From: Giardia intestinalis
Taxonomy: Eukaryota
Assembly (NCBI GenBank): GCA_000002435.2
Contig: CM018793.1
Length of the DNA stretch: 64,000 nucleotides
Reading direction: 5' to 3' (one strand)
Below, piece by piece: positions 1,772 through 43,137 of this stretch. A model generated the notes under the pieces. It was not told where the DNA came from. It was given only the letters and a program-made list of their open reading frames with translations, and ran no database searches. A program made the position numbers and the translations under genes. Within the stretch, counting starts at the first letter, position 1. Every line of letters starts with the position of its first letter.

Positions 1772-2051
1772 ATAGTAACTATTTGCAGATCCACACGCTC
1801 ACCCGTCCATAGCGGTTCGTTTCCGGATTGCTCGTTTCCAGTTGTAAATTAATTTAAAGTGAATTCTTCTCAAGTTTTTACGCGGTGTCGAGAATGATGA
1901 GACGTGTTCCTCTCTCCTACAGACTCCCTGGGGATGCTATGTACACCTTACTGATTTACTTTCCTTTTCTCAAGGGCCATTGTGTCGTGCCATTGTGTTT
2001 TTGCGGGGCTTAGTGGTTCCCAGTGCAGTCGCCCGGATCCGGCAGGACCTA

Positions 2052-5537: not shown

Positions 5538-5860
5538 AAGAGGGGTTTTTTGAAATCACTTATGCCAAGTAAACGGTCTCCGGAGGAGTGGAAGCAAACA
5601 GATTGATGCGTTGCTCTACAAGGCAGGCACTTCTGTGGTACTTTTGTAGCGGCACTTAAGGCCACATTCCTCGGCTATTGCCTGCTACTTTTTGGAAAAA
5701 ATCATTATCCCCTCCCCTCAGTCATCTGGGCACACGCACCTCAGAGCAACATGAAGAAAGCGAAATACTAGGAACGCCATTCAACATGCAATTAGGTATT
5801 TTAAAAACCTTATCGAAATTAAATTAAAATTTGGGAATACAAAGCCAAATCGCAAAAGCC

Positions 5861-20458: not shown

Positions 20459-22588
20459 TTAACAGCAGCACTCCAACCTTTGTAGTACTTCGTTCGAGAG
20501 GAGGGAGACTATCTCGTGGCATCCCCATAGCTTGGCCATACAAAGAGCATCTCCTCCCGTACTGTCTCTCAGACTCTTCTCTCTCACGAGGAGCTTTACA
20601 CAGTCAATACTACCAATTTTCATAGCAAACATAAGAGCGGTCCATCCCGTTTTCTCCTTCATGCCAGCTTCCTTGTCTACGAGTAGCCTAACACAATCTA
20701 CGTGACGATTCTGCGCAGCCCACATGAGAGCGGTCATCCCGTCAGTCCTCTGCATACCACCCTCCAGCTCCACAAGTAATTTGACGCAGTCTGTGCGGCC
20801 GAGCTCTGCAGCGCACATGAGAGCGGTCCATCCATTGCCATCTTGCATGCGGCTTTCCTTTTTCATGAGTAGCTTAACACAGTCTGTATAACCACGACCT
20901 GCTGCAGCCATGAGAGCTGTAGTTCCGTTATTATCTTGCATACATATCTCCTTCCTTAGTAAACTCCTGGCGCAGTTCGAGTAGCCATTACCTACTGTGG
21001 CCATAAGAGCCGTTCCTCCATTGTTATCTCTCATACCTCCTTCCCTTTCCAGCAAAAGCTCGAGACAGTCTATGTGACCAGTTCTTGCAGCCCATATGAG
21101 GGCCGTCCACCCGCTATTATCTCTTATGCCCCCTTCCTTCTCCAGTAGCAGCCCCACAAGTTCTGTGTGACCGTGTATCGCTGCTCTCATCAGGGCGGTC
21201 CCTCCGCATATCTTCCATCTGTCCACATGTGTGCATCCCTTCATCTGCATGCCTCCCTGGAGCGGTATGAGGGTCTTCACTGCCTCCACGTCGTTTCTGT
21301 CAACGGCCCTCATGAGGTCGGTGGAGTCGTCCTCTTCGAGATGCTCCTCCTCTGTGTCCTCTATATTGTCTGTCTCGTCTGTCGTATCTATTGCATCTAC
21401 TGTGTCTGTCGTATCTGTCGTATCCGCTGTATCCGTTGCATTCCACGCGTCCCCCATGCCTATCTTCATCCATATCTCCTTTACCTTCTCAAGCGTCTTG
21501 GAGGTCTCACCAAACTGCTCCTTAGGGATATCTGCCCCTGCGGATTTAGCAGCAAGCTCCTTCTCAAGAGATAGGATCTTGTTGTTGGCATCATTCAGAG
21601 CAGCCTCCAAAGATGCGCATCTGTTCCTCAGTGCTTTATCTTTGGCTTCCTGTTCATCAGGAGGGCCGTTGAGCATCTGAAGCAGACGGACAAGCCCTCT
21701 GGCTGTCGGCCTCCTCTCTGGATCCAGCACGAATATCCGCTCCAGAACACTCTTTATGAAGCCGTCGGTGATGCCACTCAGATCGGGCCTCCACCCATCG
21801 ACGAAGACATCCTCTGGTTCTCTGCCCCCCAAGAAGTCCGGCTTCCTCAGGGTGGCGAGCTCGTATGCTATGGCCCCAATGCTCCAGATGTTGGACGCGG
21901 GAGTTATGATACCGCGGAGGAGCGTCTCGGGGGCCATGTATGCGGGGTCGCCGGTCTTCGTAGCCCAGCTCGACATGCCCATGCAGAGTTCGAAATTCGC
22001 AAGAACAATGTGCCTCCTATTTTCTGTGAATAAAATATTGTCAGGCTTGAAGATAACACCAGGAAACAGGCTGCCGTGGACACCATTGATGGGATCATGC
22101 AAGTAGATAAGGCAATTAGCAAGGTCTCTTACAAGGGAAAGTACCAACCTCTTAGGAATAGGCTTATGAGTTTCTCTGTAATTAGTGATCAACTGCTGAA
22201 GGTCTCCGCAGCGGCGGTCCATGATAATAAAAATCGTATTGCGACTCTTAATTATCTTGCCGCAGCTGAGAACATCCGGATAAGAGGTGTTTGGAAGAGC
22301 GACTAGCTTGAGTTTGGCAGCATCTACACTATACTGGTCTGGATCATCAGGCCGGATCTCCTTCGCGGCAAGGTGAGGGTATCCTTTAAGAGAGTAGATA
22401 GTACTGTAGGCATCCTTGCTGAGCACGTCACCCAGGCACCTGCGCAGCTTCTCGGGACTGAACATGGGGACGTCATCTGTATCCACCAGCCCCGCAAAAC
22501 CACTAGCTGACCCCTCAGTAGGACTCCTTAGAGTGCTATGTGCGGCGGATGAGGTAAGGGGGTAAGACCGGCAGTCAACAGCCATCAT
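20459..22588 (-). CDS. NEK-family kinase-like protein with C-terminal ankyrin repeats, probably a catalytically inactive pseudokinase
   Basis: Kinase fold motifs are present (AAKEI, KPDNILF, GDPAYMAPE, SNIWSIGAIAYEL). However, the HRD catalytic loop reads GVIFKPDN and DFG reads NFE. About 9 ankyrin repeats follow (GxTALMxAAxxGHxxCVKLLL). The start is re-anchored to ATGATG at 22588 with an AT-rich leader; the ORF-track start at 22684 is GTG. Confidence 0.75.
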   Translation of the reverse strand: MMAVDCRSYPLTSSAAHSTLRSPTEGSASGFAGLVDTDDVPMFSPEKLRRCLGDVLSKDAYSTIYSLKGYPHLAAKEIRPDDPDQYSVDAAKLKLVALPNTSYPDVLSCGKIIKSRNTIFIIMDRRCGDLQQLITNYRETHKPIPKRLVLSLVRDLANCLIYLHDPINGVHGSLFPGVIFKPDNILFTENRRHIVLANFELCMGMSSWATKTGDPAYMAPETLLRGIITPASNIWSIGAIAYELATLRKPDFLGGREPEDVFVDGWRPDLSGITDGFIKSVLERIFVLDPERRPTARGLVRLLQMLNGPPDEQEAKDKALRNRCASLEAALNDANNKILSLEKELAAKSAGADIPKEQFGETSKTLEKVKEIWMKIGMGDAWNATDTADTTDTTDTVDAIDTTDETDNIEDTEEEHLEEDDSTDLMRAVDRNDVEAVKTLIPLQGGMQMKGCTHVDRWKICGGTALMRAAIHGHTELVGLLLEKEGGIRDNSGWTALIWAARTGHIDCLELLLEREGGMRDNNGGTALMATVGNGYSNCARSLLRKEICMQDNNGTTALMAAAGRGYTDCVKLLMKKESRMQDGNGWTALMCAAELGRTDCVKLLVELEGGMQRTDGMTALMWAAQNRHVDCVRLLVDKEAGMKEKTGWTALMFAMKIGSIDCVKLLVREKSLRDSTGGDALCMAKLWGCHEIVSLLSNEVLQRLECCC

Positions 22589-23182
22589 TACTTTTAATTT
22601 TACAGTACAGTTTACTCTCCGTTTCACTGGGTAAATCTCCCATGCGAGCCAGCGCCGCCCTGGGCAGGTCTCTTGCTTACTCACTAACCGAAATCCAAAT
22701 CCAGACTTCGCAAGTCAAACGTCGTCCACTTCAGCGGGAGAAGAAGCCCAAATGGGGAAGTCGGTGGTCCAACGCCTAGCCCTCTGCGTCCCCAGTAGAC
22801 AACAAACCCGCGGCTGCTCCCACGAGTGAGCCGCTGAGGAAGGCCTGCGGGGACTCGAAGAAAAGAGTCTAGAGAGCATCCAATAGAATGAGCAGGAGGG
22901 CCAGGAGACAGGAACAAGAGAGCTCTAGCATCTTCCTCTAGCGAACCTCCCTGTCATGGAGAAGGGTGTATGGTGGCTGAGTGTGGGGGTTGTAAACCTA
23001 GAGCAATCGCCGGGTCGATGGCTTCAGCATGGCTTTCAGCAAGATGTAGCAGGGAATCCGAACCAGCTGAGCATTGGACCAGGTCCTGGATAGGAGCTAA
23101 GGGCTCCTGTGCACGGCTGGGCTGCTCTCTAGATGGGACAGGGCACGGTGAGCTGGACGGGTGTGATACTATAAGGTATCTA

Positions 23183-23202
23183 TAGTTGTATCGATACAAC
23201 TA
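23183..23202. repeat. 20-bp perfect palindrome tagttgtatcgatacaacta, with a mirror copy at 36670-36689
   Basis: Exact self-reverse-complement centred on ATCGAT. It sits in the ORF-free part of each arm. Confidence 0.85.
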
Positions 23203-26200
23203 GTAGGCCCACACTGGACTCTGAGAAGTACACTGCTAGACAGGCTGGAGAAGCCTGAGGGGCGATAGCACCATCTTGTTATCGCTATGCAGTGCTCTGT
23301 GGGCATGCATTCAAGACATCATCCCCTGGTAGCCGGGGAGGGGACAGAGTCAGGCGGTAGTGAGCATGCCCATCAGAATGCCTCTAGGTACTGACCAGCC
23401 ACTCCCTAGAAGCGCAGATGTCTCGGCTAGGTTGCATCACATCCAGAGCAAAAGAGGAAGCTGTACTGTCCTATTTGTTTCTCAGAACAATGTGCGAATA
23501 GAAGGCGGCCCAGCGACTGATACTCTGCACCGTCCTCTTCATCCACAGCCTGAGCAGCCAGATGCCAGGCTCAATATGAAGACGGAGGCTGCGAAGAGTA
23601 AACTCACCACGGGGCCGATTGTCTGACACCAAAAAATCCGAAAGGACGACAGTAGCTGCTGTCTCCTTGAAGAGTGCATCACACACAGTATCGACCTTGG
23701 TCTCCTAGACGAACACTCTAGAACATTCTACACTAGCCCTGACTTCTGAGGCATTAAACCCTATAACTAGCACAGAGTGAGGCAACAGCATGCAGACGGT
23801 GCGTTATCTTCATAGATGTGTACTACAGCTTCCGACTGCATATGGATGTACCGAGATGGGCAGTTTGACCGGCTTACATTGGCGACTTGTCCGTCACCGT
23901 GTTTGCTGCGATGAGAAGCTGCGTCTGCCCGGCAGACTGAGCATAGATTACAGCAGCTTCTCTGCTGATGCATGTATGGCCATGCGCCGCCCTAGTAGGT
24001 GGCGTAAATACCATAATGCCTAACCTGTCTGTTGTTAGCGGAAAATAGCAGTTAGTCGTGTTAGAGATGCCTCTAAGTAAGCCTCTAGTCTTTGTGCCTA
24101 CTCCTCTACCAATTATAGTGACGACCGTATATTCAGAAAGACTACGGAACTCTCCACCGTCTCTCAAGGAGACTAACGGCTCATGCATGGGCTAGCGACG
24201 GAGGCCCATGAACTACCTACTACGAGCCTAGCTTACTGAGCAGTCTGGATCACAGTGCACTTGATAAGCATCTATGCACTCATTTGGATGCTCACTACTA
24301 ATACTGACAAGACTACAAGGAGGTTTGCTTTTGGTCACACTCCCCTCATAATGCTTAGCCCTTGGCACCACATTTCAACGAAGGAAGATGTTAGGTAGGT
24401 ACGCAAAAGGCTATTTGTGCACGGTGGTTCCTGGAGAGCAAGTTTGCACAAAGACTGTAAAGGCGACTAGCAGATCAGTGAGGTAAGCCTGACGTTATAG
24501 AGACAAGCTGTAGATCCGGATTGCAATGGGGACGCCTGTGGTGTCTCTCTGGCCTTCGAGTGTAGAAAAATCGCGAGGTCTGCAGACAGGTGAAGCTAGT
24601 TTTTGATTTATGCGCTTATAGCAGTGTAATATTTATTGGGACCTGTTTCGTCTGAGGCCGAAGACGTTTATCTTTTCTCCGTATACAAGCAAGGATCTAC
24701 TGTAGAGATATACTGTGCAGGCCAGTACCAATCGACGTGGTTGCTATTAGCAGGTGTCTCACTTGCACCTTCTCATAACGGGTAGCCATCAGCAGCGTCC
24801 TCGGCCCACGTGACATTCTAGATGCATCTCTGCCTTTGACCAAAGATTGACACACGCGTTGTGTAGTTTAGATTGCTCATCAGCCAGAGTGGCGTGGCTA
24901 CCCCTTATCCTCTACTTGTCTATCTCGTACAACCATTGCTGATGGCCTTTCCAGATTAGCATGCAAATGCTCTTATCGGTCCCACAAAGGCATACGTCAT
25001 ACAAATAATCACTACAGTCTAGGGTCCTGTCTACCAAAGAAAAGGCCAACCAGTTTACCACGTAGGCATTCATTGTGCATCTCATATAGTCTGGCAAGTC
25101 TTGTGCTCCCCAACATTCCCTCGCAAGCCCTCAGCTAAAGCCCGTATGCATATCGTTATTGACAAGCGCCTTAGCTTCATCTGGCCACTTAGGGCGTTAG
25201 ACCCTTTGCCTTGTACAATGAGTATACTCGGCGTGGGAGGTATACAATCAGCATCGGCCTTTTCTGCTCGTTGTCCGTATGATACTGTTGTTGCTTCTTG
25301 ATTCAACCAGCAACCTAGTTAATGGCTCAAGAGTAGGTGATAGCCCGCCAACGGGCAGTCAATAGTGGCCATAACGCATACCTTCACCAAGGCACAGCCT
25401 CCCTGAGCAGAGCACAAAAGTGGACCCTGCCATTCTGCGGCCCTACTATTCTCTTGAATAACAGGATCAGAGCAGCTCATGGTTAGTATTAGCTGTCTTC
25501 GGGTCTCCACCTGTCCTTATTGTCTGAGGTATGCTTGACTCCGTAGATTCGAAAGATGCTGTACTGTACTCGTACCTGCAAGCCTCAGCCAAGCAAGGCT
25601 ACCATCTTGAAGGCTTGGCAGTGATGAGCCACACAGTCGGCGGGATCTGCAGAGAGCATTCATCCCAATGAGCCTTTTACTTGTCGTATACAGGTTGTGG
25701 CTGTGACCTCATAGGCGCAGGACTTTCTGGAATAACCGGTCAACTACAGAGTCTGTCCACTCATGTAAAGCCACCTGATAGAGGGCGATATCAATCTCGT
25801 CACTCGTCTACAACATACACCAGTCGAATCTCACAGATGAACAAGGGCCACCCAGCCCGCAGCACTAGACATTAACAGATATCCTTCACGACAAAGGGGG
25901 TGAGCGACTAGTAGACCACAGCAGTCGCCTGCCCATTGAAGATCTTCCAGTCACTGACCTAGGTCAGCTTCCTACAAGATCTTGAGAGCTTTATTAGAGG
26001 TGCATGCTTATAGAATCCCCAACTCAAGGTGCATGCTGTCGGACCCTGCTATTTTTCACATCAGCTCGTAGACATCGGTTCTTTTGATCTCTAGTGGGGT
26101 CACGGGGGATCGCAAGATATGGTTCCCTCAGTAAGGCTTTATCTGACTCCTGTAGCTATATGACAGGAGGATACCGGTCTTCTATGGATTATTTAACGCA

Positions 26201-27357
26201 TGCTAAGGTGCACCAGTACAAGTCCTACAGTGTGGCATGATTCGTGAGTCAAAAGGTAGGATGCTTGGGCTGATTGGCGTGTCTCCTCGGGACCAAATAC
26301 AGCTAGGACCAAAGGTCATGAACGAATGCTATTCGATTCCCTTATCAGCAGATGGGGGTCAACTGCTCTAGTATCCACAAGAGGCTATAGAGGGTACTGG
26401 ACCAGGCATCCGGCCAATTGCTGGCAAATCAACACAACCTCCTTGGATCTCCATTCTTTCCTCACAGGCATCTACATGTAGGAAGCTCTGAGGACCTAGA
26501 GCCCTACACTAACAGGCTCAAGGTATTGCACTCCTAGGTGCTTCCATTAGTGGTGGTAGTGATAGCACCAGGATGATCCAGAAGGGGGATAGAAATCCTG
26601 CCCCGTTAGCTCAAGAAATGGCACAGTTTGAGCAGGGTTTCCTCCTTGTTTAAATTTGGGAGTACTAGCCTACGCCCTCTGACCATCTGACGCCTTATCA
26701 TGCGATGGGGAATCTTAATAGTATCCACTACAAAAAGCCAGAAATAGCACCATGCACACCCAACAAACCAGAGCGTCTCATAGGCTAATCTACACTGATT
26801 CGCACTTCCACGGACCCTAGCGACCACTGTAACCGTCTCTCGGGATCTTGCAAGGGACTGTCCTTGAGCGCGATTCCTCCATGACAACCAGAAGTCGCAG
26901 ACATAGTCCAAAGGGATGAGAATACTATAGAGGCGGAGAAGAGATCATCTGCGCACGGGGGTCCGCAGGGGCCCGACCCGCACAGGGAAGGCGTAAGAGG
27001 CCAATTCCCCAGGAATGCAGAGACATTAAGAGAGGAACCAGCAGTGGGCCCATAACACAGGGAGGTCACCCGGGCCGCCCCCTGATTGGCCACAGGGTAG
27101 AGGAGCAGCATGCGCGCGGGACAGCATTGCTACTTATTTTTGAATTTTCTGTTTCCCTGCATGTTGTGCAGGGGTCCGCGGTGGGTGCTAGACTATAGTT
27201 AGTAGATGCTTTCGGCATTAACAACTATCTCTTGTACAACAATATTATCAAAAAGGGATTTCTTTAAGCTGGCAGCATAGCAATAACCGAATGGAGCTTT
27301 TTAGCTTTGGGTATCTTTGCTAGTAGGATTCTTGATAGTGGATTAAGAAGAATCTCA

Positions 27358-28617
27358 ATGTTGCTGATAGCTTTCTATCTTGGGCTGAGCGCCCTTGCGG
27401 CACAATGTAAGCAAGTACAAAATTGTGCAGCAGGTAAGTGTGAGATGGTTGGCGGCACTGAAATTTGTACAGAATGCGCGACAAATGGAAACGTTCCTAT
27501 CAATGGGGAGTGTACACCAAAAGGTAATGCGGCTGATAAATGCAAGAAAGTTAACGGTAATGAGCTTGTTGACGATAAGACATGTGGAAAATGTGAGAAC
27601 ACATACTTCATGTACAAGGGTGGATGCTATCAACTTGGCAGTGATGTCGCACTCCTCATCTGCAACGATCAAGCTGCTTCACCTGGAGGGCGTAATGCTG
27701 TTGCTGGCGTTTGCACAGAATGTAATGCTACTGGGGGATTCTTCAAAAGCCCAGAGGCGGCCGACACGACAGATTCCTGCATATCGTGCAGTGATACAAC
27801 TGGAGTGCAGGTTAATGGCGGTAACACGTATAAAGGTATCGAGAATTGTGTAGTATGTGCAGCTCCAGAAAGAGGAACAGGTAACGAAAATAAGATTGCT
27901 GCATGTGAGTCATGTCTTGAAGGATTCTTCGTTGCATCTAACAAGGCAGTATGCACACGTTGTACTGATAATGATAATTGCGCTAAGTGTGATGCAGGCG
28001 AAAACAAGTGCACAAAATGTAAGGCAACAGCCAGCAAACCATATCTAAAAAAGGGCGAAACCGAGGACTCTAATACATGTGTTAATAGTAACGAATGTAC
28101 TACTGATAAAACTTACTTCACTGATGATACTGACGACCCTACTCATGGAAAGATGTGCAAGAAATGCTCAGAAGGGATAGCAGACTGTAAGAAATGCGCT
28201 CCATCATCACCTTCTGCTTTAGCTACAGTATCCGCAATTGTGTGCACAGAATGTACAACACAGACCAACAAACCCAATGTTGCCGGAACAGGGTGCTTCA
28301 CATGCTCCGTAGACGGATGTAGTAACTGTAGCGAGAATGACGTATGTGAAAAGTGTGGACCTAACAAGAAGGTGAGCCCCGGGAGGAAGTCATGCGTGGA
28401 TAGCTGTCCCGAGAACTCCATTGACGATAACTCTGTCTGTACATGCAGCAGTGGGTACAGCCCTGACAGCAGTGGGGCCTCCTGTGTGTCCACTGGCAGT
28501 AATAGGAGCGGGCTCTCCACGGGGGCCATAGCGGGGATCTCCGTCGCAGTCATCGTCGTCGTCGGGGGTCTCATAGGGTTCCTCTGCTGGTGGTTCGTGT
28601 GTAGGGGGAAGGCGTGA
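27358..28617 (+). CDS. vsp: Variant-specific surface protein (VSP)
   Basis: Signal peptide MLLIAFYLGLSALAA, many CXXC motifs, a GGCY motif (YKGGCYQ), and a C-terminal TM ending in the invariant CRGKA. The stop is followed by the VSP extended poly(A) signal. The ORF-track start at 27307 is TTG; the first ATG is 27358. Confidence 0.92.
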   Translation: MLLIAFYLGLSALAAQCKQVQNCAAGKCEMVGGTEICTECATNGNVPINGECTPKGNAADKCKKVNGNELVDDKTCGKCENTYFMYKGGCYQLGSDVALLICNDQAASPGGRNAVAGVCTECNATGGFFKSPEAADTTDSCISCSDTTGVQVNGGNTYKGIENCVVCAAPERGTGNENKIAACESCLEGFFVASNKAVCTRCTDNDNCAKCDAGENKCTKCKATASKPYLKKGETEDSNTCVNSNECTTDKTYFTDDTDDPTHGKMCKKCSEGIADCKKCAPSSPSALATVSAIVCTECTTQTNKPNVAGTGCFTCSVDGCSNCSENDVCEKCGPNKKVSPGRKSCVDSCPENSIDDNSVCTCSSGYSPDSSGASCVSTGSNRSGLSTGAIAGISVAVIVVVGGLIGFLCWWFVCRGKA

Positions 28618-28631
28618 CTTAGGTAGTAAAC
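28617..28631 (+). promoter_or_regulatory. VSP-type extended polyadenylation signal ACTTAGGTAGTAAAC, overlapping the TGA stop
   Basis: Exact match to the ACTYAGRTAGTRAAY consensus described for Giardia vsp genes. It contains the general Giardia AGTRAAY poly(A) signal. Confidence 0.8.
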
Positions 28632-29107
28632 ACGTCACTGTATATGGCTTATTACGCTATTCTGCCGGGGCTATCTGAGGATCGCCCAGAGGTCGTGCGA
28701 GTGATCCTCGCTCAAGCTCTGACCAGTCTAAGGACGAGGGTTGGTCATGAATAACATGACGGAGAGCCCTCTCCAGTGACACATCCAGAATCTGGGCATT
28801 CCTCGCCGCTCCATGAGGATATGCTCTGTCTGGATGTCCATGCCGATCTATCTTGGATTCAGGCCTTCTCGCAGGCTCTCTACTCTACCCGTGGCGCCTC
28901 TCCATGGTCTTCCTTCGTGGTGGGTGAAGCTCCGGTCGCTGTTTTTTAGATGCTCCTGTCTGTCAGGGGCTGCCACCGGGCTCTCCGCTGGCTGGGCCCT
29001 CGGTGTCCGTCCGGCTGTGGCCCGGGCAGCGCTCTACGGTCGCGGTCACTTGGGTCTCAGTGGGTTCGGATGGTGGGGAGGCGAGGGGAGTTAGGGCGGT
29101 GAGGCCG

Positions 29108-29134
29108 GAGGGGCTGGAGGGGCTGGAGGGGCTG
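29108..29134. repeat. (GGAGGGGCT)x3 G-run triplet repeat at the inner edge of the left arm; its mirror lies at 30738-30764
   Basis: Read directly: ggaggggctggaggggctggaggggct followed by gagg. Confidence 0.8.
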
Positions 29135-29150
29135 AGGTTGGTGGTGGTTG

Positions 29151-30719
29151 TATGCGCCTCTGGTCCCTCGATAGACTGGGGTGATCGCAGCTGTGGTGAC
29201 TGGGGGCTGTCCATCTGTGACTCACCCCTCTGTGTGCTCGTGGTCTGTGAGTGCCTCCACCCAGACAACCCTCAGGAGCCGTGCACACCAGGACAGAGAG
29301 GGTGACAGAGGAGAGTCAAGCAGCCCTGCCACGAGGGTGCACAGCAGCCAGCCTGGGCTGCAGGGCCCGCTCGAGCGATGGTAGTGACAGACGACTCCCT
29401 CTGACAGCAGCCCTGGTGACTGGCACTGGTCTGCTTTCGAGGCTGAGTGACAGTGTGCACAGATGGACATGAGTGCAGGAGGACCATCCACACACGGACA
29501 GACTGTGCCCCCATACGAGAGCGCCAGGCAACCACCCGAGCACCCGAGAGGCAGCAACAGACACGGGCACTAGAGATCCCCAGCCAGACAGCTGCCATGC
29601 TCATCCATAGGGGCATCAGAGGACCAGGGGAGTCACCCTCACAATCAGGGTATGATAGGAAGCCAGAGGACTCAAACACTACAGCATAGCAGATCCAAGG
29701 GAGGCACACTCCAGCAGGCGAGCAGTGGCAGAGCCCTGATAGCTGCCAGCCCCCCATGACACCCAGGCAGGCACCAGGCTCACCGAAGGCTCTGCTGGCC
29801 TCCACCGATGATCCGAGGGGGCAGCAACCAGAGGAGTGGGGAGGCCTTCGGACACCACAAGAGGCCCGGCTGTCCAGCAGGCGATGGAGCACAGGTGGCC
29901 TCTGAGCACCATACAGGCACAGAGCCGACCATCAGAGTGATGCCCGATCAGAGACGACCACGAGCACCCTCCACCGCACTCTGAGGGGCTGTCGATCATC
30001 CCACTGCCTCTCATAGCAGACCTCCTTGAGAGCAGTGCAGTGGGTCCCAGCTCATGCACGCCTCCCCTGGCATAGGACACCCCGGCTCTCCCCGAGGGGT
30101 CATCAGAGCCACGAGAGGTGTCAAGGTCCTGGTAGATCACACCGGGAACTCCCCGAGGGCACAGCAACTGAGATATGAGTGACCCTCAGTGTGCTCCTCT
30201 CTGATGGTAGAGCATCTTGAGACCAAGGGGGTCACCTCTGCCTACGGACGACACACAGCACTCCACAACAAGGACCCACTAGGAGCAGCACAGCTGACCA
30301 CGGGGACAGTGCAGTCACCAGTGCCCCACCGTGCCAGTTTTCTGGGCCATCATACTATAGGCATGAGAGAACCCCATCCCATCCACAGGGTCATCCATGC
30401 CCCTGCTGGCCCGAGGTGAACTCCCCGTCGAGGCGCTGGACAGGGCATGCCAGGGGCTCAGCAGACCCACAGAGAGAATCAGCGAGTAGCAGGAGGGGCT
30501 GCGATGGCCTGCCTCAGCCCTCACGTACCAGCCAGACAGAGAGACAGTACTGCCTGAGGCATGCAGGGGCCAAGGGAGGCGATCAGTCAGGGGACACGAC
30601 ACGATCGTCGGTGCCTGTGTCTCGGGAGTGCAACGAAGGCTGGAGATCAGACACAGCCACCTTAGCAAACAGAGTGGGGACAACCCACCACCCCAATAGC
30701 CCACCGAACCCAGAGGCAC
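29151..30719. other. Unique central spacer between the inverted-repeat arms. It is GC-rich and markedly T-poor on the top strand.
   Basis: It has no mirror partner. By eye thymine is clearly under-represented on the top strand. The several overlapping long ORFs on the minus strand are compositional artefacts, because an A-poor strand contains few stop codons. Confidence 0.7.
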
Positions 30720-31240
30720 ATACAACACCACCAACCTCAGCCCCTCCAGCCCCTCCAGCCCCTCCGGCCTCACCGCCCTAACTCCCCTCGCCTCCCCACC
30801 ATCCGAACCCACTGAGACCCAAGTGACCGCGACCGTAGAGCGCTGCCCGGGCCACAGCCGGACGGACACCGAGGGCCCAGCCAGCGGAGAGCCCGGTGGC
30901 AGCCCCTGACAGACAGGAGCATCTAAAAAACAGCGACCGGAGCTTCACCCACCACGAAGGAAGACCATGGAGAGGCGCCACGGGTAGAGTAGAGAGCCTG
31001 CGAGAAGGCCTGAATCCAAGATAGATCGGCATGGACATCCAGACAGAGCATATCCTCATGGAGCGGCGAGGAATGCCCAGATTCTGGATGTGTCACTGGA
31101 GAGGGCTCTCCGTCATGTTATTCATGACCAACCCTCGTCCTTAGACTGGTCAGAGCTTGAGCGAGGATCACTCGCACGACCTCTGGGCGATCCTCAGATA
31201 GCCCCGGCAGAATAGCGTAATAAGCCATATACAGTGACGT

Positions 31241-31255
31241 GTTTACTACCTAAGT
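31241..31255 (-). promoter_or_regulatory. Mirror copy of the VSP extended polyadenylation signal
   Basis: Reverse complement of 28617-28631, lying inside the right arm. Confidence 0.8.
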
Positions 31256-32514
31256 CACGCCTTCCCCCTACACACGAACCACCAGCAGAGGAACCCTATG
31301 AGACCCCCGACGACGACGATGACTGCGACGGAGATCCCCGCTATGGCCCCCGTGGAGAGCCCGCTCCTATTACTGCCAGTGGACACACAGGAGGCCCCAC
31401 TGCTGTCAGGGCTGTACCCACTGCTGCATGTACAGACAGAGTTATCGTCAATGGAGTTCTCGGGACAGCTATCCACGCATGACTTCCTCCCGGGGCTCAC
31501 CTTCTTGTTAGGTCCACACTTTTCACATACGTCATTCTCGCTACAGTTACTACATCCGTCTACGGAGCATGTGAAGCACCCTGTTCCGGCAACATTGGGT
31601 TTGTTGGTCTGTGTTGTACATTCTGTGCACACAATTGCGGATACTGTAGCTAAAGCAGAAGGTGATGATGGAGCGCATTTCTTACAGTCTGCTATCCCTT
31701 CTGAGCATTTCTTGCACATCTTTCCATGAGTAGGGTCGTCAGTATCATCAGTGAAGTAAGTTTTATCAGTAGTACATTCGTTACTATTAACACATGTATT
31801 AGAGTCCTCGGTTTCGCCCTTTTTTAGATATGGTTTGCTGGCTGTTGCCTTACATTTTGTGCACTTGTTTTCGCCTGCATCACACTTAGCGCAATTATCA
31901 TTATCAGTACAACGTGTGCATACTGCCTTGTTAGATGCAACGAAGAATCCTTCAAGACATGACTCACATGCAGCAATCTTATTTTCGTTACCTGTTCCTC
32001 TTTCTGGAGCTGCACATACTACACAATTCTCGATACCTTTATACGTGTTACCGCCATTAACCTGCACTCCAGTTGTATCACTGCACGATATGCAGGAATC
32101 TGTCGTGTCGGCCGCCTCTGGGCTTTTGAAGAATCCCCCAGTAGCATTACATTCTGTGCAAACGCCAGCAACAGCATTACGCCCTCCAGGTGAAGCAGCT
32201 TGATCGTTGCAGATGAGGAGTGCGACATCACTGCCAAGTTGATAGCATCCACCCTTGTACATGAAGTATGTGTTCTCACATTTTCCACATGTCTTATCGT
32301 CAACAAGCTCATTACCGTTAACTTTCTTGCATTTATCAGCCGCATTACCTTTTGGTGTACACTCCCCATTGATAGGAACGTTTCCATTTGTCGCGCATTC
32401 TGTACAAATTTCAGTGCCGCCAACCATCTCACACTTACCTGCTGCACAATTTTGTACTTGCTTACATTGTGCCGCAAGGGCGCTCAGCCCAAGATAGAAA
32501 GCTATCAGCAACAT
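31255..32514 (-). CDS. vsp: Variant-specific surface protein (VSP), an identical inverted copy
   Basis: The protein is identical to the 27358-28617 product. It is convergent with it, so the pair is tail-to-tail. Confidence 0.92.
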   Translation of the reverse strand: MLLIAFYLGLSALAAQCKQVQNCAAGKCEMVGGTEICTECATNGNVPINGECTPKGNAADKCKKVNGNELVDDKTCGKCENTYFMYKGGCYQLGSDVALLICNDQAASPGGRNAVAGVCTECNATGGFFKSPEAADTTDSCISCSDTTGVQVNGGNTYKGIENCVVCAAPERGTGNENKIAACESCLEGFFVASNKAVCTRCTDNDNCAKCDAGENKCTKCKATASKPYLKKGETEDSNTCVNSNECTTDKTYFTDDTDDPTHGKMCKKCSEGIADCKKCAPSSPSALATVSAIVCTECTTQTNKPNVAGTGCFTCSVDGCSNCSENDVCEKCGPNKKVSPGRKSCVDSCPENSIDDNSVCTCSSGYSPDSSGASCVSTGSNRSGLSTGAIAGISVAVIVVVGGLIGFLCWWFVCRGKA

Positions 32515-35500
32515 TGAGATTCTTCTTAATCCACTATCAAGAATCCTACTAGCAAAGATACCCAAAGCTAAAAAGCTCCATTCGGTTATTGCTATGCTGC
32601 CAGCTTAAAGAAATCCCTTTTTGATAATATTGTTGTACAAGAGATAGTTGTTAATGCCGAAAGCATCTACTAACTATAGTCTAGCACCCACCGCGGACCC
32701 CTGCACAACATGCAGGGAAACAGAAAATTCAAAAATAAGTAGCAATGCTGTCCCGCGCGCATGCTGCTCCTCTACCCTGTGGCCAATCAGGGGGCGGCCC
32801 GGGTGACCTCCCTGTGTTATGGGCCCACTGCTGGTTCCTCTCTTAATGTCTCTGCATTCCTGGGGAATTGGCCTCTTACGCCTTCCCTGTGCGGGTCGGG
32901 CCCCTGCGGACCCCCGTGCGCAGATGATCTCTTCTCCGCCTCTATAGTATTCTCATCCCTTTGGACTATGTCTGCGACTTCTGGTTGTCATGGAGGAATC
33001 GCGCTCAAGGACAGTCCCTTGCAAGATCCCGAGAGACGGTTACAGTGGTCGCTAGGGTCCGTGGAAGTGCGAATCAGTGTAGATTAGCCTATGAGACGCT
33101 CTGGTTTGTTGGGTGTGCATGGTGCTATTTCTGGCTTTTTGTAGTGGATACTATTAAGATTCCCCATCGCATGATAAGGCGTCAGATGGTCAGAGGGCGT
33201 AGGCTAGTACTCCCAAATTTAAACAAGGAGGAAACCCTGCTCAAACTGTGCCATTTCTTGAGCTAACGGGGCAGGATTTCTATCCCCCTTCTGGATCATC
33301 CTGGTGCTATCACTACCACCACTAATGGAAGCACCTAGGAGTGCAATACCTTGAGCCTGTTAGTGTAGGGCTCTAGGTCCTCAGAGCTTCCTACATGTAG
33401 ATGCCTGTGAGGAAAGAATGGAGATCCAAGGAGGTTGTGTTGATTTGCCAGCAATTGGCCGGATGCCTGGTCCAGTACCCTCTATAGCCTCTTGTGGATA
33501 CTAGAGCAGTTGACCCCCATCTGCTGATAAGGGAATCGAATAGCATTCGTTCATGACCTTTGGTCCTAGCTGTATTTGGTCCCGAGGAGACACGCCAATC
33601 AGCCCAAGCATCCTACCTTTTGACTCACGAATCATGCCACACTGTAGGACTTGTACTGGTGCACCTTAGCATGCGTTAAATAATCCATAGAAGACCGGTA
33701 TCCTCCTGTCATATAGCTACAGGAGTCAGATAAAGCCTTACTGAGGGAACCATATCTTGCGATCCCCCGTGACCCCACTAGAGATCAAAAGAACCGATGT
33801 CTACGAGCTGATGTGAAAAATAGCAGGGTCCGACAGCATGCACCTTGAGTTGGGGATTCTATAAGCATGCACCTCTAATAAAGCTCTCAAGATCTTGTAG
33901 GAAGCTGACCTAGGTCAGTGACTGGAAGATCTTCAATGGGCAGGCGACTGCTGTGGTCTACTAGTCGCTCACCCCCTTTGTCGTGAAGGATATCTGTTAA
34001 TGTCTAGTGCTGCGGGCTGGGTGGCCCTTGTTCATCTGTGAGATTCGACTGGTGTATGTTGTAGACGAGTGACGAGATTGATATCGCCCTCTATCAGGTG
34101 GCTTTACATGAGTGGACAGACTCTGTAGTTGACCGGTTATTCCAGAAAGTCCTGCGCCTATGAGGTCACAGCCACAACCTGTATACGACAAGTAAAAGGC
34201 TCATTGGGATGAATGCTCTCTGCAGATCCCGCCGACTGTGTGGCTCATCACTGCCAAGCCTTCAAGATGGTAGCCTTGCTTGGCTGAGGCTTGCAGGTAC
34301 GAGTACAGTACAGCATCTTTCGAATCTACGGAGTCAAGCATACCTCAGACAATAAGGACAGGTGGAGACCCGAAGACAGCTAATACTAACCATGAGCTGC
34401 TCTGATCCTGTTATTCAAGAGAATAGTAGGGCCGCAGAATGGCAGGGTCCACTTTTGTGCTCTGCTCAGGGAGGCTGTGCCTTGGTGAAGGTATGCGTTA
34501 TGGCCACTATTGACTGCCCGTTGGCGGGCTATCACCTACTCTTGAGCCATTAACTAGGTTGCTGGTTGAATCAAGAAGCAACAACAGTATCATACGGACA
34601 ACGAGCAGAAAAGGCCGATGCTGATTGTATACCTCCCACGCCGAGTATACTCATTGTACAAGGCAAAGGGTCTAACGCCCTAAGTGGCCAGATGAAGCTA
34701 AGGCGCTTGTCAATAACGATATGCATACGGGCTTTAGCTGAGGGCTTGCGAGGGAATGTTGGGGAGCACAAGACTTGCCAGACTATATGAGATGCACAAT
34801 GAATGCCTACGTGGTAAACTGGTTGGCCTTTTCTTTGGTAGACAGGACCCTAGACTGTAGTGATTATTTGTATGACGTATGCCTTTGTGGGACCGATAAG
34901 AGCATTTGCATGCTAATCTGGAAAGGCCATCAGCAATGGTTGTACGAGATAGACAAGTAGAGGATAAGGGGTAGCCACGCCACTCTGGCTGATGAGCAAT
35001 CTAAACTACACAACGCGTGTGTCAATCTTTGGTCAAAGGCAGAGATGCATCTAGAATGTCACGTGGGCCGAGGACGCTGCTGATGGCTACCCGTTATGAG
35101 AAGGTGCAAGTGAGACACCTGCTAATAGCAACCACGTCGATTGGTACTGGCCTGCACAGTATATCTCTACAGTAGATCCTTGCTTGTATACGGAGAAAAG
35201 ATAAACGTCTTCGGCCTCAGACGAAACAGGTCCCAATAAATATTACACTGCTATAAGCGCATAAATCAAAAACTAGCTTCACCTGTCTGCAGACCTCGCG
35301 ATTTTTCTACACTCGAAGGCCAGAGAGACACCACAGGCGTCCCCATTGCAATCCGGATCTACAGCTTGTCTCTATAACGTCAGGCTTACCTCACTGATCT
35401 GCTAGTCGCCTTTACAGTCTTTGTGCAAACTTGCTCTCCAGGAACCACCGTGCACAAATAGCCTTTTGCGTACCTACCTAACATCTTCCTTCGTTGAAAT

Positions 35501-37282
35501 GTGGTGCCAAGGGCTAAGCATTATGAGGGGAGTGTGACCAAAAGCAAACCTCCTTGTAGTCTTGTCAGTATTAGTAGTGAGCATCCAAATGAGTGCATAG
35601 ATGCTTATCAAGTGCACTGTGATCCAGACTGCTCAGTAAGCTAGGCTCGTAGTAGGTAGTTCATGGGCCTCCGTCGCTAGCCCATGCATGAGCCGTTAGT
35701 CTCCTTGAGAGACGGTGGAGAGTTCCGTAGTCTTTCTGAATATACGGTCGTCACTATAATTGGTAGAGGAGTAGGCACAAAGACTAGAGGCTTACTTAGA
35801 GGCATCTCTAACACGACTAACTGCTATTTTCCGCTAACAACAGACAGGTTAGGCATTATGGTATTTACGCCACCTACTAGGGCGGCGCATGGCCATACAT
35901 GCATCAGCAGAGAAGCTGCTGTAATCTATGCTCAGTCTGCCGGGCAGACGCAGCTTCTCATCGCAGCAAACACGGTGACGGACAAGTCGCCAATGTAAGC
36001 CGGTCAAACTGCCCATCTCGGTACATCCATATGCAGTCGGAAGCTGTAGTACACATCTATGAAGATAACGCACCGTCTGCATGCTGTTGCCTCACTCTGT
36101 GCTAGTTATAGGGTTTAATGCCTCAGAAGTCAGGGCTAGTGTAGAATGTTCTAGAGTGTTCGTCTAGGAGACCAAGGTCGATACTGTGTGTGATGCACTC
36201 TTCAAGGAGACAGCAGCTACTGTCGTCCTTTCGGATTTTTTGGTGTCAGACAATCGGCCCCGTGGTGAGTTTACTCTTCGCAGCCTCCGTCTTCATATTG
36301 AGCCTGGCATCTGGCTGCTCAGGCTGTGGATGAAGAGGACGGTGCAGAGTATCAGTCGCTGGGCCGCCTTCTATTCGCACATTGTTCTGAGAAACAAATA
36401 GGACAGTACAGCTTCCTCTTTTGCTCTGGATGTGATGCAACCTAGCCGAGACATCTGCGCTTCTAGGGAGTGGCTGGTCAGTACCTAGAGGCATTCTGAT
36501 GGGCATGCTCACTACCGCCTGACTCTGTCCCCTCCCCGGCTACCAGGGGATGATGTCTTGAATGCATGCCCACAGAGCACTGCATAGCGATAACAAGATG
36601 GTGCTATCGCCCCTCAGGCTTCTCCAGCCTGTCTAGCAGTGTACTTCTCAGAGTCCAGTGTGGGCCTACTAGTTGTATCGATACAACTATAGATACCTTA
36701 TAGTATCACACCCGTCCAGCTCACCGTGCCCTGTCCCATCTAGAGAGCAGCCCAGCCGTGCACAGGAGCCCTTAGCTCCTATCCAGGACCTGGTCCAATG
36801 CTCAGCTGGTTCGGATTCCCTGCTACATCTTGCTGAAAGCCATGCTGAAGCCATCGACCCGGCGATTGCTCTAGGTTTACAACCCCCACACTCAGCCACC
36901 ATACACCCTTCTCCATGACAGGGAGGTTCGCTAGAGGAAGATGCTAGAGCTCTCTTGTTCCTGTCTCCTGGCCCTCCTGCTCATTCTATTGGATGCTCTC
37001 TAGACTCTTTTCTTCGAGTCCCCGCAGGCCTTCCTCAGCGGCTCACTCGTGGGAGCAGCCGCGGGTTTGTTGTCTACTGGGGACGCAGAGGGCTAGGCGT
37101 TGGACCACCGACTTCCCCATTTGGGCTTCTTCTCCCGCTGAAGTGGACGACGTTTGACTTGCGAAGTCTGGATTTGGATTTCGGTTAGTGAGTAAGCAAG
37201 AGACCTGCCCAGGGCGGCGCTGGCTCGCATGGGAGATTTTCTTGGACAGCAGCTGGCAAACCGGTTTTAGTGACGAAAGTAA

Positions 37283-37720
37283 ACCATCATTCGTGATGCT
37301 GAACAATGCGTGAAGAACGGGGCTGCCTGCAACTGGACGCCCAAGGCGAGGGGCGGAACGTGTGTGCAGAACGCCACGGGCGCATGGACGTGTCAGTGCA
37401 ACCCGGGCTACGTTGGAAGGCATTACGACCTCTGCGACAAGGGCATGACGGCTGTCGATGGGACCTGTACGCCTCACAATCTGGTGAAACTATACGCTAG
37501 CAAGAAGTGCCTGAACACCCGTCTGGCCGCCAGCGTGTGCACAGGGCACGGGGAGTGCTACAAGGACGCCTGTGTCTGCGCCGAGGGCTACCACGGGGAT
37601 CTGTGTGACTGCCGTGTGAGGAACATCGGGGCCGTGGCGGGGGTGACGGCGAGCACGGCCGTCTTCTTCGGGCTCCTCTTCCTGTCTGTGGCCAGGTGTC
37701 ATAGGACGCCCGCCCGGTAG
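37283..37720 (+). pseudogene. EGF-like cysteine-rich membrane protein fragment (an HCMP-like 3-prime part). It has no ATG start or signal peptide and begins 44 bp after the right boundary of the inverted repeat.
   Basis: The open frame runs from the stop at 37280. The first in-frame ATG is internal, and the ORF-track start is GTG. EGF-like Cys spacing (CxCxxGYxGxxC) plus a C-terminal TM (AVAGVTASTAVFFGLLFLSVA). Confidence 0.4.
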
Positions 37721-37773
37721 GGTGTACAAGTCCCGCACACGGCTAACCTACCCGCAGCCCAAAAAAGGACCGG

Positions 37774-39687: not shown

Positions 39688-39690
39688 CGC

Positions 39691-40917: not shown

Positions 40918-41275
40918 TCACAGACACCGACTATCTGCCAATACTATCTCGTCCGACACCAGCTAGACACATATGAATATAACACGCCCTTCTGGTCAGT
41001 AACAGATACTATGGAGTATCCGAAGGTCTCACTTATCAACGAGCCTTCAGATTATTTTTCGGCAGGCGATTATCTTTCTCGATTCCCTGAGGACACGGTT
41101 CAGCTGGTCGACAACAGCTAGGTAAGCTTTTTATCTTAAGAGTAGACTCAAGTGCATCGGAAGCTATAATGTTATGCAGCAAGCATTACACGTAGCTCAG
41201 CGAGGACACAGCGCTGAAAAACCGATTACTGAAGGTGACAGAGGGCAAAGTAAATCTTCGACAAAATACAATTCA

Positions 41276-43054: not shown

Positions 43055-43137
43055 CCAAGTTTTTAAGTTAGTTGAAATTATTTCTCCATTGTGGAAAGTT
43101 TGCAATAACGAAATTGCAAATTTGCTTCCTACAAACA

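What the first reader, a model, noticed from the sequence alone, without database searches (positions are those of the whole stretch)
22633..37239. Perfect 6.5-kb inverted repeat carrying two identical, tail-to-tail VSP genes
Two identical vsp genes converge on a roughly 1.57-kb spacer, and the arms are identical in every sampled stretch. A read-through transcript from either gene would fold into a dsRNA hairpin about 6 kb long, containing the vsp sense strand and its perfect antisense. VSP expression in Giardia is reported to be controlled post-transcriptionally by RdRP/Dicer/Argonaute. This locus is therefore a built-in source of vsp dsRNA/siRNA, or a hotspot for gene conversion that keeps the copies identical. 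Inverted vsp pairs are known in G. intestinalis. The perfection and length of the arms here, 4.7 kb of which is non-coding, is still striking.
Basis: partly seen in the sequence, partly recalled or inferred. Interest (0 to 1): 0.7.

Follow-up and report, generated by a model that had tools for sequence, protein, structure and literature searches.

The report
Known Giardia inverted VSP gene pair
This is a real, perfect 6.5-kb inverted duplication carrying two identical surface-antigen (VSP) genes of Giardia intestinalis WB, but the pair is already catalogued, and comparison with other isolates suggests its arms are kept identical by DNA copying between them rather than pointing to an RNA-hairpin function.

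Summary
The arms are 22633-29146 and 30726-37239, 6514 nt each and 100% complementary, around a unique 1579-nt spacer. Each arm carries an identical 419-aa VSP gene, tail to tail.

The locus is Giardia intestinalis WB chromosome 5, GL50803_0014331/d14331. It is listed in Xu 2020 Table 2 (419 aa, 2637 bp apart) and matches vsp107 in Adam 2010 (3' divergence 529 nt, inter-ORF 2638), so the structure is already known.

What my analysis adds:
- The same palindrome, with homologous inner and outer junctions, exists in assemblage AII. Orthologous arms differ by 517 substitutions, yet the two WB arms differ by none. I read this as arm-to-arm gene conversion.
- WB lacks, in both arms, a 3.1-kb reverse-transcriptase relic segment that AII has.
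- The GC-rich spacer plus about 250 nt of each arm is non-coding and recurs at about 77-90% identity (spacer) at paralogous VSP loci.
- In assemblage E the syntenic site holds an intact HCMP gene. WB keeps only its C-terminal remnant beside the right arm.

The dsRNA-hairpin idea is untested. A transcript starting at the VSP promoter could form a stem of about 1.8 kb at most, not 6 kb, and this VSP is known to be expressed.

The parts
22633..29146 (+). Left arm of the inverted repeat (6514 nt). It comprises the outer segment A, the upstream region U, the VSP gene and the 3' flank f.
   Evidence: 100% complementary to 30726-37239
30726..37239 (-). Right arm of the inverted repeat (6514 nt), the exact reverse complement of the left arm.
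29147..30725 (.). Unique central spacer S (1579 nt, 61% GC). It is non-coding and is conserved at orthologous and paralogous tail-to-tail VSP loci.
   Evidence: No self-complementarity. No Pfam hit in six frames. No Rfam hit. Variable sites by codon phase are 160/158/157, with many 1-nt indels. Identity is 89% to the DH ortholog, 89% to paralog L007 and 77% to paralog L008.
27358..28617 (+). VSP gene copy 1 (419 aa plus stop). It is 100% identical to the WB protein KAE8305600.1/KAE8305601.1/XP_001705960.1, i.e. GL50803_0014331/d14331.
   Evidence: Xu 2020 Table 2
31255..32514 (-). VSP gene copy 2, identical to copy 1.
28625..28631 (+). AGTAAAC polyadenylation signal of copy 1. It is the only AGTRAAY motif on this strand between the two genes.
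31241..31247 (-). AGTAAAC polyadenylation signal of copy 2.
22969..27357 (+). Upstream region U (4.4 kb, no coding signal). Its mirror copy is at 32515-36903. It is homologous to the upstream regions of related VSPs in AII (92%), in the AII paralog L008 (69%) and at two P15 loci (65%).
22937..22969 (.). Site where assemblage AII carries an extra 3.1-kb segment with a reverse-transcriptase relic. WB lacks it in both arms (mirror site 36903-36935). In DH the segment is bounded by a ~13-nt direct repeat, TATGrTrGCwGAG.
28618..29146 (+). 3' flank f (529 nt), inside the arm; its mirror f' is 30726-31254. The stretch 28640-28900 is hypervariable between loci and isolates (57-67% identity). The inner ~250 nt are conserved.
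   Evidence: 529 nt equals the '3' divergence' of vsp107 in Adam 2010
28900..30970 (.). Conserved core: S plus about 250 nt of each arm. Its 100-nt bins are mostly 85-96% identical in DH and L007, and in L008 as far as ~30200. The exceptions are the bins at the arm/spacer junctions that hold the 9-nt repeats (63-80%). The core also occurs next to a single VSP without a second copy (L007).
   Evidence: boundaries approximate
29103..29134 (+). 3.6 copies of the 9-nt unit GGCTGGAGG at the inner end of the arm (mirror 30738-30769). The array is shorter in DH.
20459..22588 (-). Left flanking gene, a NEK-type kinase with ankyrin repeats (709 aa). Its ATG lies 45 nt outside the left arm.
37301..37717 (+). 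Remnant of the C-terminal ~176 codons of a high-cysteine membrane protein gene that is intact (1374 aa) at the syntenic site in P15. It lies just outside the right arm.
   Evidence: tblastn E 6e-60
37774..39687 (+). Right flanking gene, a papain-family cysteine protease (637 aa). It anchors orthology with DH and P15.

Best explanation
This is one member of the known family of identical, inverted VSP gene pairs of Giardia intestinalis. It is the tail-to-tail pair GL50803_0014331/d14331 (matching vsp107 of Adam 2010) on chromosome 5 of isolate WB.

It is a segmental DNA palindrome. Each arm consists of about 4.7 kb of degenerate non-coding upstream DNA (which carries a reverse-transcriptase relic in other isolates), the VSP gene, and 529 nt of 3' flank. 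The arms surround a unique, conserved, GC-rich, non-coding 1.6-kb spacer.

The palindrome is old: it predates the split of sub-assemblages AI and AII. Its arms stay identical because sequence is repeatedly copied from one arm to the other by intrachromosomal gene conversion. This is the same kind of homogenisation that I infer keeps Giardia's four genome copies nearly identical.

The inverted orientation is what lets such a duplicate persist. Crossing-over between inverted copies only flips the spacer, whereas direct repeats would be deleted.

Shown: the structure, the identity of the locus, the conservation of the junctions in AII, and between-lineage divergence combined with within-lineage identity.

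Inferred: gene conversion as the process, and the survivorship argument. Any benefit, such as two expressible copies or protection of the gene from decay, is conjecture.
For: - Structure.
- Organism and locus: GlsR10 snoRNA; VSP 100% identical to WB KAE8305600.1/KAE8305601.1 on a 4,018,654-bp contig; Xu 2020 Table 2 lists chr5 d14331/14331, convergent, 419 aa, 2637 bp apart; Adam 2010 Table 5 lists vsp107 with 3' divergence 529 and inter-ORF distance 2638. Both match the window exactly.
- Orthologous palindrome in AII: the DH contig runs from the cathepsin flank through the arm, VSP and spacer into 484 nt of a second arm that is 100% complementary. The inner junction is at the homologous position. 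Metagenome contig L002 starts within 3 nt of the WB outer boundary and ends at the far end of the spacer, as expected when identical arms collapse in assembly.
- Concerted evolution: WB and DH arms differ by 517 substitutions and 112 gap columns over 6.2 kb, against 0 differences between the two WB arms. In the DH stub there are 109 substitutions versus WB and 0 between the DH arms.
- Shared changes: a sharp drop from 98.4% to 72.5% identity inside the VSP 3' end is shared by both arms. The 3.1-kb segment is absent from both WB arms.
- Literature: identical VSP genes occur only as inverted pairs (Adam 2010). WB allelic heterozygosity is about 0.01%.
Against: - Conversion is inferred, not observed.
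- The DH second arm is seen for only 484 nt, at a contig end. A short-read assembler could have built it from reads of both arms, so within-DH identity is weaker evidence than within-WB identity.
- Illumina polishing of the WB assembly could erase rare arm differences.
- Whole-arm re-duplication in each lineage would give the same pattern.
- The spacer is no more similar between the WB and DH orthologs (89.2%) than between either and the paralog L007 (89.4-89.7%). Simple vertical descent of the whole unit is therefore not the full story. Exchange between loci, or selection on the spacer, must also be acting.
Confidence: 0.8

Rival explanations
1. Hairpin or convergent dsRNA source. Transcripts that escape the VSP polyadenylation signal run through the spacer into the antisense of the other copy. 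They fold, or pair with mRNA, into dsRNA that Dicer cuts into vsp siRNAs, feeding the reported RdRP/Dicer/Argonaute control of VSP expression.
For: - The sequence can form such a duplex.
- After the single AGTAAAC at 28625 there is no further AGTRAAY on the transcribed strand through the spacer and the antisense VSP.
- The first antisense sequence reached would be the 3' end of the VSP gene. That this end is conserved across VSPs is stated in Adam 2010.
- Giardia shows pervasive overlap of convergent transcripts and antisense VSP RNA (PMC3610916; PMC2817412).
- The spacer core is conserved at several tail-to-tail loci. It could therefore be a shared convergently transcribed region.
Against: - No RNA data could be examined, and I found no paper linking VSP pairs to small RNAs.
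- The stem from a VSP-promoter transcript is about 1.8 kb at most, so the 4.7 kb of identical upstream DNA is not explained.
- Head-to-head identical pairs (4 of 14 in Adam 2010; 7 in Xu 2020) cannot work this way yet are equally identical.
- Most VSPs are unpaired.
- A canonical poly(A) signal starts 8 nt after the stop.
- GL50803_14331 is expressed and rose after excystation. VSP1267, another paired gene, has a monoclonal antibody raised against its protein.
- In P15, related VSPs sit singly between inverted upstream regions, an arrangement that yields no VSP hairpin.
Confidence: 0.12
2. Composite mobile or duplicative cassette. The unit bounded by inverted upstream regions (U), or the 2-kb core with its ~250-nt inverted ends, is a foldback-like element. 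It moves or seeds palindromes and carries VSP genes as cargo. The arms would be identical because of how the element forms, not because of later conversion.
For: - U, f and S recur at other loci in one AII genome (L007, L008) with different VSPs.
- U occurs as an inverted pair around a single VSP at two non-syntenic P15 loci.
- The core occurs beside a single VSP and a housekeeping Mec-17 gene in L007.
- At the syntenic P15 site there is no palindrome but an intact HCMP gene, of which WB keeps only the tail at the arm edge.
- Reverse-transcriptase relics lie within or next to the arms in DH and P15.
- Adam 2010 and the 2022 preprint invoke duplication and transposition.
Against: - There is no transposase or integrase, and no Pfam hit in U or S.
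- There is no target-site duplication at the outer boundaries.
- The reverse-transcriptase relic is absent from WB and degenerate in DH.
- Formation by a mobile element would not explain why arms stay identical while orthologs diverge by 8%.
Confidence: 0.15
3. A very recent one-off inverted duplication in the WB lineage, with no continuing homogenisation.
For: Zero differences in 6514 nt is what a brand-new duplication would show.
Against: The same palindrome, with homologous inner junction, spacer and outer boundary, is present in AII isolates. These differ from WB by 5% in the unique flank and 8.5% in the arms.
Confidence: 0.05
4. Assembly artefact: a foldback chimera or a mis-joined collapsed repeat.
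For: Identical repeats are hard to assemble. Earlier workers questioned VSP pairs as possible artefacts.
Against: The two arms have different unique flanks and the spacer is asymmetric. Four independent data sets give the same centre: Sanger WB, PacBio WB, 454 DH and metagenomes.
Confidence: 0.02

Closest known systems
Identical inverted VSP gene pairs of Giardia intestinalis WB (Adam et al. 2010, BMC Genomics 11:424; Xu et al. 2020, Sci Data 7:38; first case vsp1267)
   Same: It has every feature of the family: two identical VSP ORFs, tail to tail, 2-4 kb of non-coding DNA between them, and flanks identical up to an abrupt divergence point. This exact pair is listed as d14331/14331 (419 aa, 2637 bp) and matches vsp107 (529/2638).
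   Different: Nothing essential differs. The 2010 paper could not determine the 5' extent of identity for tail-to-tail pairs. Here it is 4725 nt upstream of the ATG.
Large palindromes of primate sex chromosomes, whose arms are kept >99.9% identical by arm-to-arm gene conversion (Rozen et al. 2003, cited from my own knowledge)
   Same: Long inverted arms carry genes around a unique spacer. The orthologous palindrome exists in a sister lineage. Arms diverge between lineages but are identical within each.
   Different: The scale is 6.5 kb rather than 9 kb to 1.45 Mb. The organism is a tetraploid, binucleate protist. The cargo is an antigenic-variation gene. Conversion is inferred from two lineages only.
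Hairpin-RNA (hpRNA) endo-siRNA loci made of inverted gene or pseudogene duplicates in Drosophila and mouse oocytes (Okamura 2008; Watanabe 2008; cited from my own knowledge and as a reference seen)
   Same: An inverted duplicate of a gene that, if transcribed as one unit, would give long perfect dsRNA against that gene.
   Different: No evidence of single-unit transcription or of small RNAs. Each copy has its own promoter context and poly(A) signal. Both copies are intact genes, and GL50803_14331 transcripts are detected.
Identical VSP pairs of Giardia muris (Xu et al. 2020, Microb Genom 6:mgen000402)
   Same: Seven identical pairs, five of them tail to tail, so the arrangement is genus-wide.
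   Different: In G. muris the intervening DNA holds NEK, ankyrin and zinc-finger genes or pseudogenes. Here the spacer has no coding signal.

Membership tests
Giardia identical inverted VSP pairs, tail-to-tail class | Two VSP ORFs with identical sequence | tested here: met
   both 419 aa, lying within 100% identical arms
Giardia identical inverted VSP pairs, tail-to-tail class | Bona fide VSP: Pfam VSP domain, signal peptide, CXXC motifs, conserved TM plus CRGKA tail, AGTAAAC signal | tested here: met
   (PF03302 in all homologues)
Giardia identical inverted VSP pairs, tail-to-tail class | Convergent orientation with 2-4 kb of non-coding DNA between the ORFs | tested here: met
   2637 nt between ORFs; no Pfam hit in six frames
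Giardia identical inverted VSP pairs, tail-to-tail class | Flanks identical up to an abrupt divergence point a few hundred nt beyond the stop codon | tested here: met
   529 nt beyond the stop, equal to the vsp107 entry in Adam 2010
Giardia identical inverted VSP pairs, tail-to-tail class | Listed in the published WB catalogues | tested here: met
   Xu 2020 Table 2, chr5 d14331/14331, 419 aa, 2637 bp. Protein accessions KAE8305600.1/KAE8305601.1.
Palindromes maintained by arm-to-arm gene conversion | Arms essentially identical around a non-palindromic spacer | tested here: met
Palindromes maintained by arm-to-arm gene conversion | Orthologous palindrome in a diverged lineage: arms differ between lineages but not within | tested here: met
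   Caveat: the second DH arm is visible for only 484 nt at a contig end.
Palindromes maintained by arm-to-arm gene conversion | Direct detection of conversion tracts, or of both spacer orientations in a population | not testable with these tools
   This needs raw long reads. The DH contig shows the spacer in the opposite orientation relative to the cathepsin flank, but 454 reads cannot resolve this.
hpRNA / endo-siRNA locus | Sequence able to form a long perfect intramolecular duplex | tested here: met
   The stem is at most about 1.8 kb for a VSP-promoter transcript.
hpRNA / endo-siRNA locus | Both arms and the loop transcribed as one RNA | not testable with these tools
   No RNA data. A canonical poly(A) signal starting 8 nt after the stop argues against efficient read-through.
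hpRNA / endo-siRNA locus | Dicer-size (25-26 nt in Giardia) small RNAs from both strands of the arms, dependent on Dicer/Argonaute | not testable with these tools
   No small-RNA data. None is reported for VSP pairs in the papers I could read.
Transposable element (foldback/TIR or retroelement) | Encoded transposase/RT, or target-site duplication at the ends | tested here: not met
   No Pfam hit in U, f or S of WB. No duplication at the outer junctions. An RT relic is present only in DH and P15.

The most novel reading that the evidence does not exclude
The conserved, non-coding, GC-rich 2-kb core (the spacer plus its ~250-nt inverted ends) may be a discrete functional element shared by the tail-to-tail VSP palindromes. 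It recurs beside different VSPs and is conserved far better than the adjacent hypervariable 3' flank. Under this reading it would both seed outward growth of the palindrome and act as a convergently transcribed region whose dsRNA feeds the small-RNA control of VSP expression.
Probability: 0.08. Interest if true: 0.7.

Novelty: already known. Interest (0 to 1): 0.3.

Why it matters
The pair is ordinary for Giardia. About 20 identical inverted VSP pairs are catalogued in WB, and similar pairs occur in G. muris. Why antigen genes are kept as perfect palindromes was still called 'cryptic' by Adam et al. (2010).

Three observations here sharpen that question:
- The palindrome is older than the AI/AII split, yet its arms are identical.
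- A non-coding spacer core is shared by several tail-to-tail loci.
- Assemblage E uses the same upstream element as inverted arms around a single VSP.

If the arms are homogenised by gene conversion, these loci are small, tractable models of palindrome maintenance. The unique spacer is the one place where read-through transcription and small RNAs can be measured unambiguously, so the hairpin idea can be tested with existing RNA libraries.

Tried and rejected
- Exact-sequence look-ups of WB proteins to fetch other WB pairs failed. The WB chromosomes are evidently not in that index, so I could not compare all 12-13 tail-to-tail pairs of WB directly. I used paralogous loci from an AII metagenome instead.
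- Pfam scans of all six frames found nothing, either in the 4.7-kb upstream region or in the whole inter-ORF region. The idea that the spacer is a VSP or other pseudogene is therefore not supported. Codon-phase and indel analysis also show no coding constraint.
- Rfam found no RNA family in the arm or spacer, at gathering threshold for the whole window and at E up to 1 for 22500-31400.
- blastn and tblastx of the spacer and upstream region against the rest of the window gave no other copies.
- A scan of JGI metagenome contigs with an invariant 27-mer from the spacer gave 0 hits.
- Literature: the endo-siRNA paper of Liao et al. 2014 is not held. A search for the GilD/GilM/GilT retroelements gave nothing useful, so assigning the RT relic to a named Giardia retroelement family remains untested.
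- A G-quadruplex role at the inner boundaries was considered. Only one motif was found in the whole region, so I dropped it.
- The opposite spacer orientation in the DH contig was considered as evidence for flip-flop inversion. I rejected it as evidence because 454 reads cannot link the spacer to a unique flank across a 9-kb identical arm.

Full report
**1. Observation**

The window holds one long repeat. Its inverted arms are 22633-29146 and 30726-37239. Each is 6514 nt, they are 100% complementary, and 1579 nt separate them. A direct string comparison confirms that one arm is the exact reverse complement of the other. Allowing one 1-nt indel, similarity continues 17 nt further inward, to 29163/30710, and then stops. 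The spacer has no internal symmetry, and the sequences outside the arms are unrelated to each other.

Each arm carries a 419-aa ORF, at 27358-28617 (+) and 31255-32514 (-). The ORF has a signal peptide, many CXXC motifs, a C-terminal membrane span and the CRGKA tail. It has the VSP initiator context CAatgTT, and an AGTAAAC signal starts 8 nt after the stop codon. The 4725 nt upstream of the ATG within each arm has no stop-free stretch above 114 codons and no Pfam match in any frame.

**2. Identity of the locus**

- A Giardia-specific snoRNA, GlsR10, lies at 1891-1958.
- The VSP is 100% identical to a Giardia intestinalis WB protein with two adjacent GenBank accessions, KAE8305600.1 and KAE8305601.1. 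It is also XP_001705960.1. It sits on a 4,018,654-bp contig.
- Xu et al. 2020 list, on chromosome 5, the convergent pair d14331/14331: 419 aa, 2637 bp apart. The gap in the window is 31255 - 28617 - 1 = 2637.
- Adam et al. 2010 list the tail-to-tail pair vsp107 with a 3' divergence of 529 nt beyond the stop and 2638 nt between ORFs. In the window, 29146 - 28617 = 529.
- The pair is therefore already catalogued twice. That paper reported 14 identical inverted pairs. A 2022 preprint counts 20, of which 13 are tail to tail. G. muris has seven.
- For tail-to-tail pairs the 2010 paper left the 5' extent of identity undetermined. Here it is 4.7 kb.

**3. Surroundings**

- On the left is an intact NEK-type kinase with ankyrin repeats, at 20459-22588 (-). 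Its ATG lies 45 nt outside the arm.
- On the right is a papain-family cysteine protease, at 37774-39687.
- Between that protease and the arm, 37301-37717 encodes only the last ~176 residues of a high-cysteine membrane protein. The gene is intact (1374 aa) at the syntenic position in the assemblage E isolate P15 (tblastn E 6e-60).
- In DH this homology runs right up to the arm boundary.
- P15 has no palindrome at this site, and its genes further left are different. The palindrome therefore sits at a synteny break and abuts a truncated gene.

**4. Comparison with assemblage AII**

The DH contig AHGT01000063.1 (L001) runs from the orthologous protease, across the same outer junction, through the arm, the VSP (95% amino-acid identity) and the spacer. 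It then continues 484 nt into a second arm that is 100% complementary to the first, where the contig ends. Its inner junction is at the homologous position. A gut-metagenome contig (L002) starts within 3 nt of the WB outer boundary and ends at the far end of the spacer. This is what an assembler produces when two arms are identical.

Identity between WB and DH by segment:

| Segment | Identity |
|---|---|
| Upstream region U | 92.2% |
| First 1093 nt of the VSP | 98.4% |
| Last 167 nt of the VSP | 72.5% |
| 3' flank f | 77% |
| Spacer S | 89.4% |

Over 6.2 kb of arm this amounts to 517 substitutions and 112 gap columns. The two WB arms differ at no position. In the DH stub there are 109 substitutions relative to WB and none between the DH arms. 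The unique protease flank is 95% identical.

AII arms also contain an extra 3.1-kb segment with a reverse-transcriptase relic (RVT_1, E 4e-6 in DH; the P15 counterpart scores 4.5e-12). Both WB arms lack it. In DH it is bounded by a ~13-nt direct repeat.

A palindrome with the same junctions thus predates the AI/AII split. Substitutions, a replaced 3' end and a 3-kb indel are each shared by both arms within a lineage. That is the signature of arm-to-arm gene conversion. The caveat is that the second DH arm is seen only briefly and comes from a short-read assembly.

**5. The upstream region and the spacer are family elements**

Translating a spacer ORF and searching for homologues gave nine hits, all from metagenome contigs. 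Two of them, L007 and L008, come from the same sample as L002 but are different loci.

- L008 has spacer, 3' flank, a different VSP (506 aa) and a U-like upstream region 69% identical to WB.
- L007 has a VSP 3' end, flank, spacer and an inverted flank, but no second VSP. Its next gene is a Mec-17 acetyltransferase.

Spacer identity:

| Comparison | Identity |
|---|---|
| WB vs DH (orthologs) | 89.2% |
| WB vs L007 (paralog) | 89.4% |
| DH vs L007 (paralog) | 89.7% |
| L008 vs each of the others | 77-78% |

Most 100-nt bins of the block from about 28900 to 30970 are 85-96% identical. The bins that hold the 9-nt repeats at the arm/spacer junctions are lower (63-80%). L008 aligns well only as far as about 30200. 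By contrast, 28640-28900 is only 57-67% identical, even between orthologs.

The spacer is not coding. Variable sites fall evenly on the three phases (160/158/157). One-nucleotide indels are frequent. Translated identity (37-47%) is far below nucleotide identity. There is no Pfam or Rfam hit.

P15 has two non-syntenic loci where a related VSP (62% and 50% amino-acid identity), with its proximal promoter, forms the 1.4-1.5-kb spacer between inverted copies of U. The arms there are 2057 nt at 98% identity and 1562 nt at 100% identity. There is no f or S homologue.

**6. How it most likely works**

The best-supported reading is a DNA-level one. This is an old segmental palindrome whose arms are homogenised by intrachromosomal gene conversion. 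The organism's four genome copies differ by only about 0.01%.

Identical VSP genes are found only in inverted arrangement. This fits survivorship: crossing-over between inverted copies flips the spacer, whereas direct copies would be lost.

I considered formation by fold-back or template-switch copying seeded by the inverted ends of the core, as in L007. That is an inference from known palindrome-forming mechanisms in other organisms and is not shown here.

**7. The hairpin hypothesis**

The sequence permits it, and after the AGTAAAC at 28625 there is no second canonical signal on that strand. However:

- A transcript from the VSP promoter contains only about 1.8 kb of an arm, so the stem would be about 1.8 kb. 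The 4.7 kb of identical upstream DNA is left unexplained.
- Head-to-head identical pairs cannot act this way, yet they are equally identical.
- Most VSPs are unpaired.
- GL50803_14331 is expressed. It was one of only two VSPs higher in trophozoites after excystation.
- I found no report of small RNAs from VSP pairs.

The idea is untested rather than refuted. The unique spacer is the place to test it.

**8. Verdict**

The feature is real, and it is an already-known kind and an already-listed locus. The new points are modest:

- the full extent of the arms;
- conservation of the palindrome across AI and AII, with concerted evolution;
- a shared non-coding spacer core;
- the truncated HCMP gene at the right boundary;
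- the different U-palindrome architecture in assemblage E.

Noticed in passing
window 1891-1958 (+): Box C/D snoRNA GlsR10 (Rfam RF02478, 105 bits, E 1e-24). This alone identifies the window as Giardia.
   Followed up: no
window 37301-37717 (+): An open 139-codon remnant of the C-terminus (EGF-like repeats plus TM) of a high-cysteine membrane protein. The full gene is 1374 aa at the syntenic site in P15. The remnant has an internal deletion, is preceded by stop codons, and ends 57 nt before the protease ATG.
   Followed up: partly
window 37000-41000: A 4-kb block of 58-66% GC, against about 47-50% elsewhere. It covers the cysteine protease gene and the adjacent helicase gene (39691-40917, -). 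Long spurious ORFs appear on the opposite strands because of the GC content. The cause of the high GC is unexplained.
   Followed up: no
L004 7704-13231 and L006 1-4645 (Giardia P15 contigs ACVC01000023.1, ACVC01000133.1): In assemblage E the homologous upstream element U forms the inverted arms, and a single VSP with its promoter is the spacer (1414 and 1521 nt). Recombination between these arms would flip the VSP gene.
   Followed up: partly
L004 3347-3529 / 7520-7702; L001 2303-2363 / 5598-5658: The reverse-transcriptase relic segment is itself flanked by inverted repeats: 183 nt at 95% in P15 and about 62 nt at about 75% in DH. The left copy in DH spans the position that is the outer arm boundary in WB.
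   Followed up: partly
L007 298-3027 (metagenome ERZ27317378, k141_116932): A copy of the flank-spacer-flank core follows a VSP 3' end but has no second VSP. The inverted repeat there is only about 430 nt at 88-100% identity. A Mec-17 tubulin acetyltransferase gene follows. This is either a precursor or a decayed palindrome.
   Followed up: partly
window 28451-28900 versus L001 11145-11600: WB-DH identity drops abruptly from 98% to about 60-73% inside the last 167 nt of the VSP and the first 280 nt of the 3' flank, then recovers. This looks like replacement of this stretch from another VSP locus in one lineage.
   Followed up: partly
window 29103-29134 and 30738-30769: A 9-nt tandem repeat (GGCTGGAGG, 3.6 copies) lies at the inner end of each arm, 12 nt from the arm/spacer boundary. 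DH has a shorter array.
   Followed up: no
L001 versus window 29147-30725: In the DH contig the spacer is in the opposite orientation relative to the protease flank than in WB. This could be a real flip by recombination between the arms, or an unresolvable assembly choice.
   Followed up: partly
window 43072-51036 (+) and 9614-17803 (+): Two very long ORFs of 2654 and 2729 aa. I did not run either against any database.
   Followed up: no
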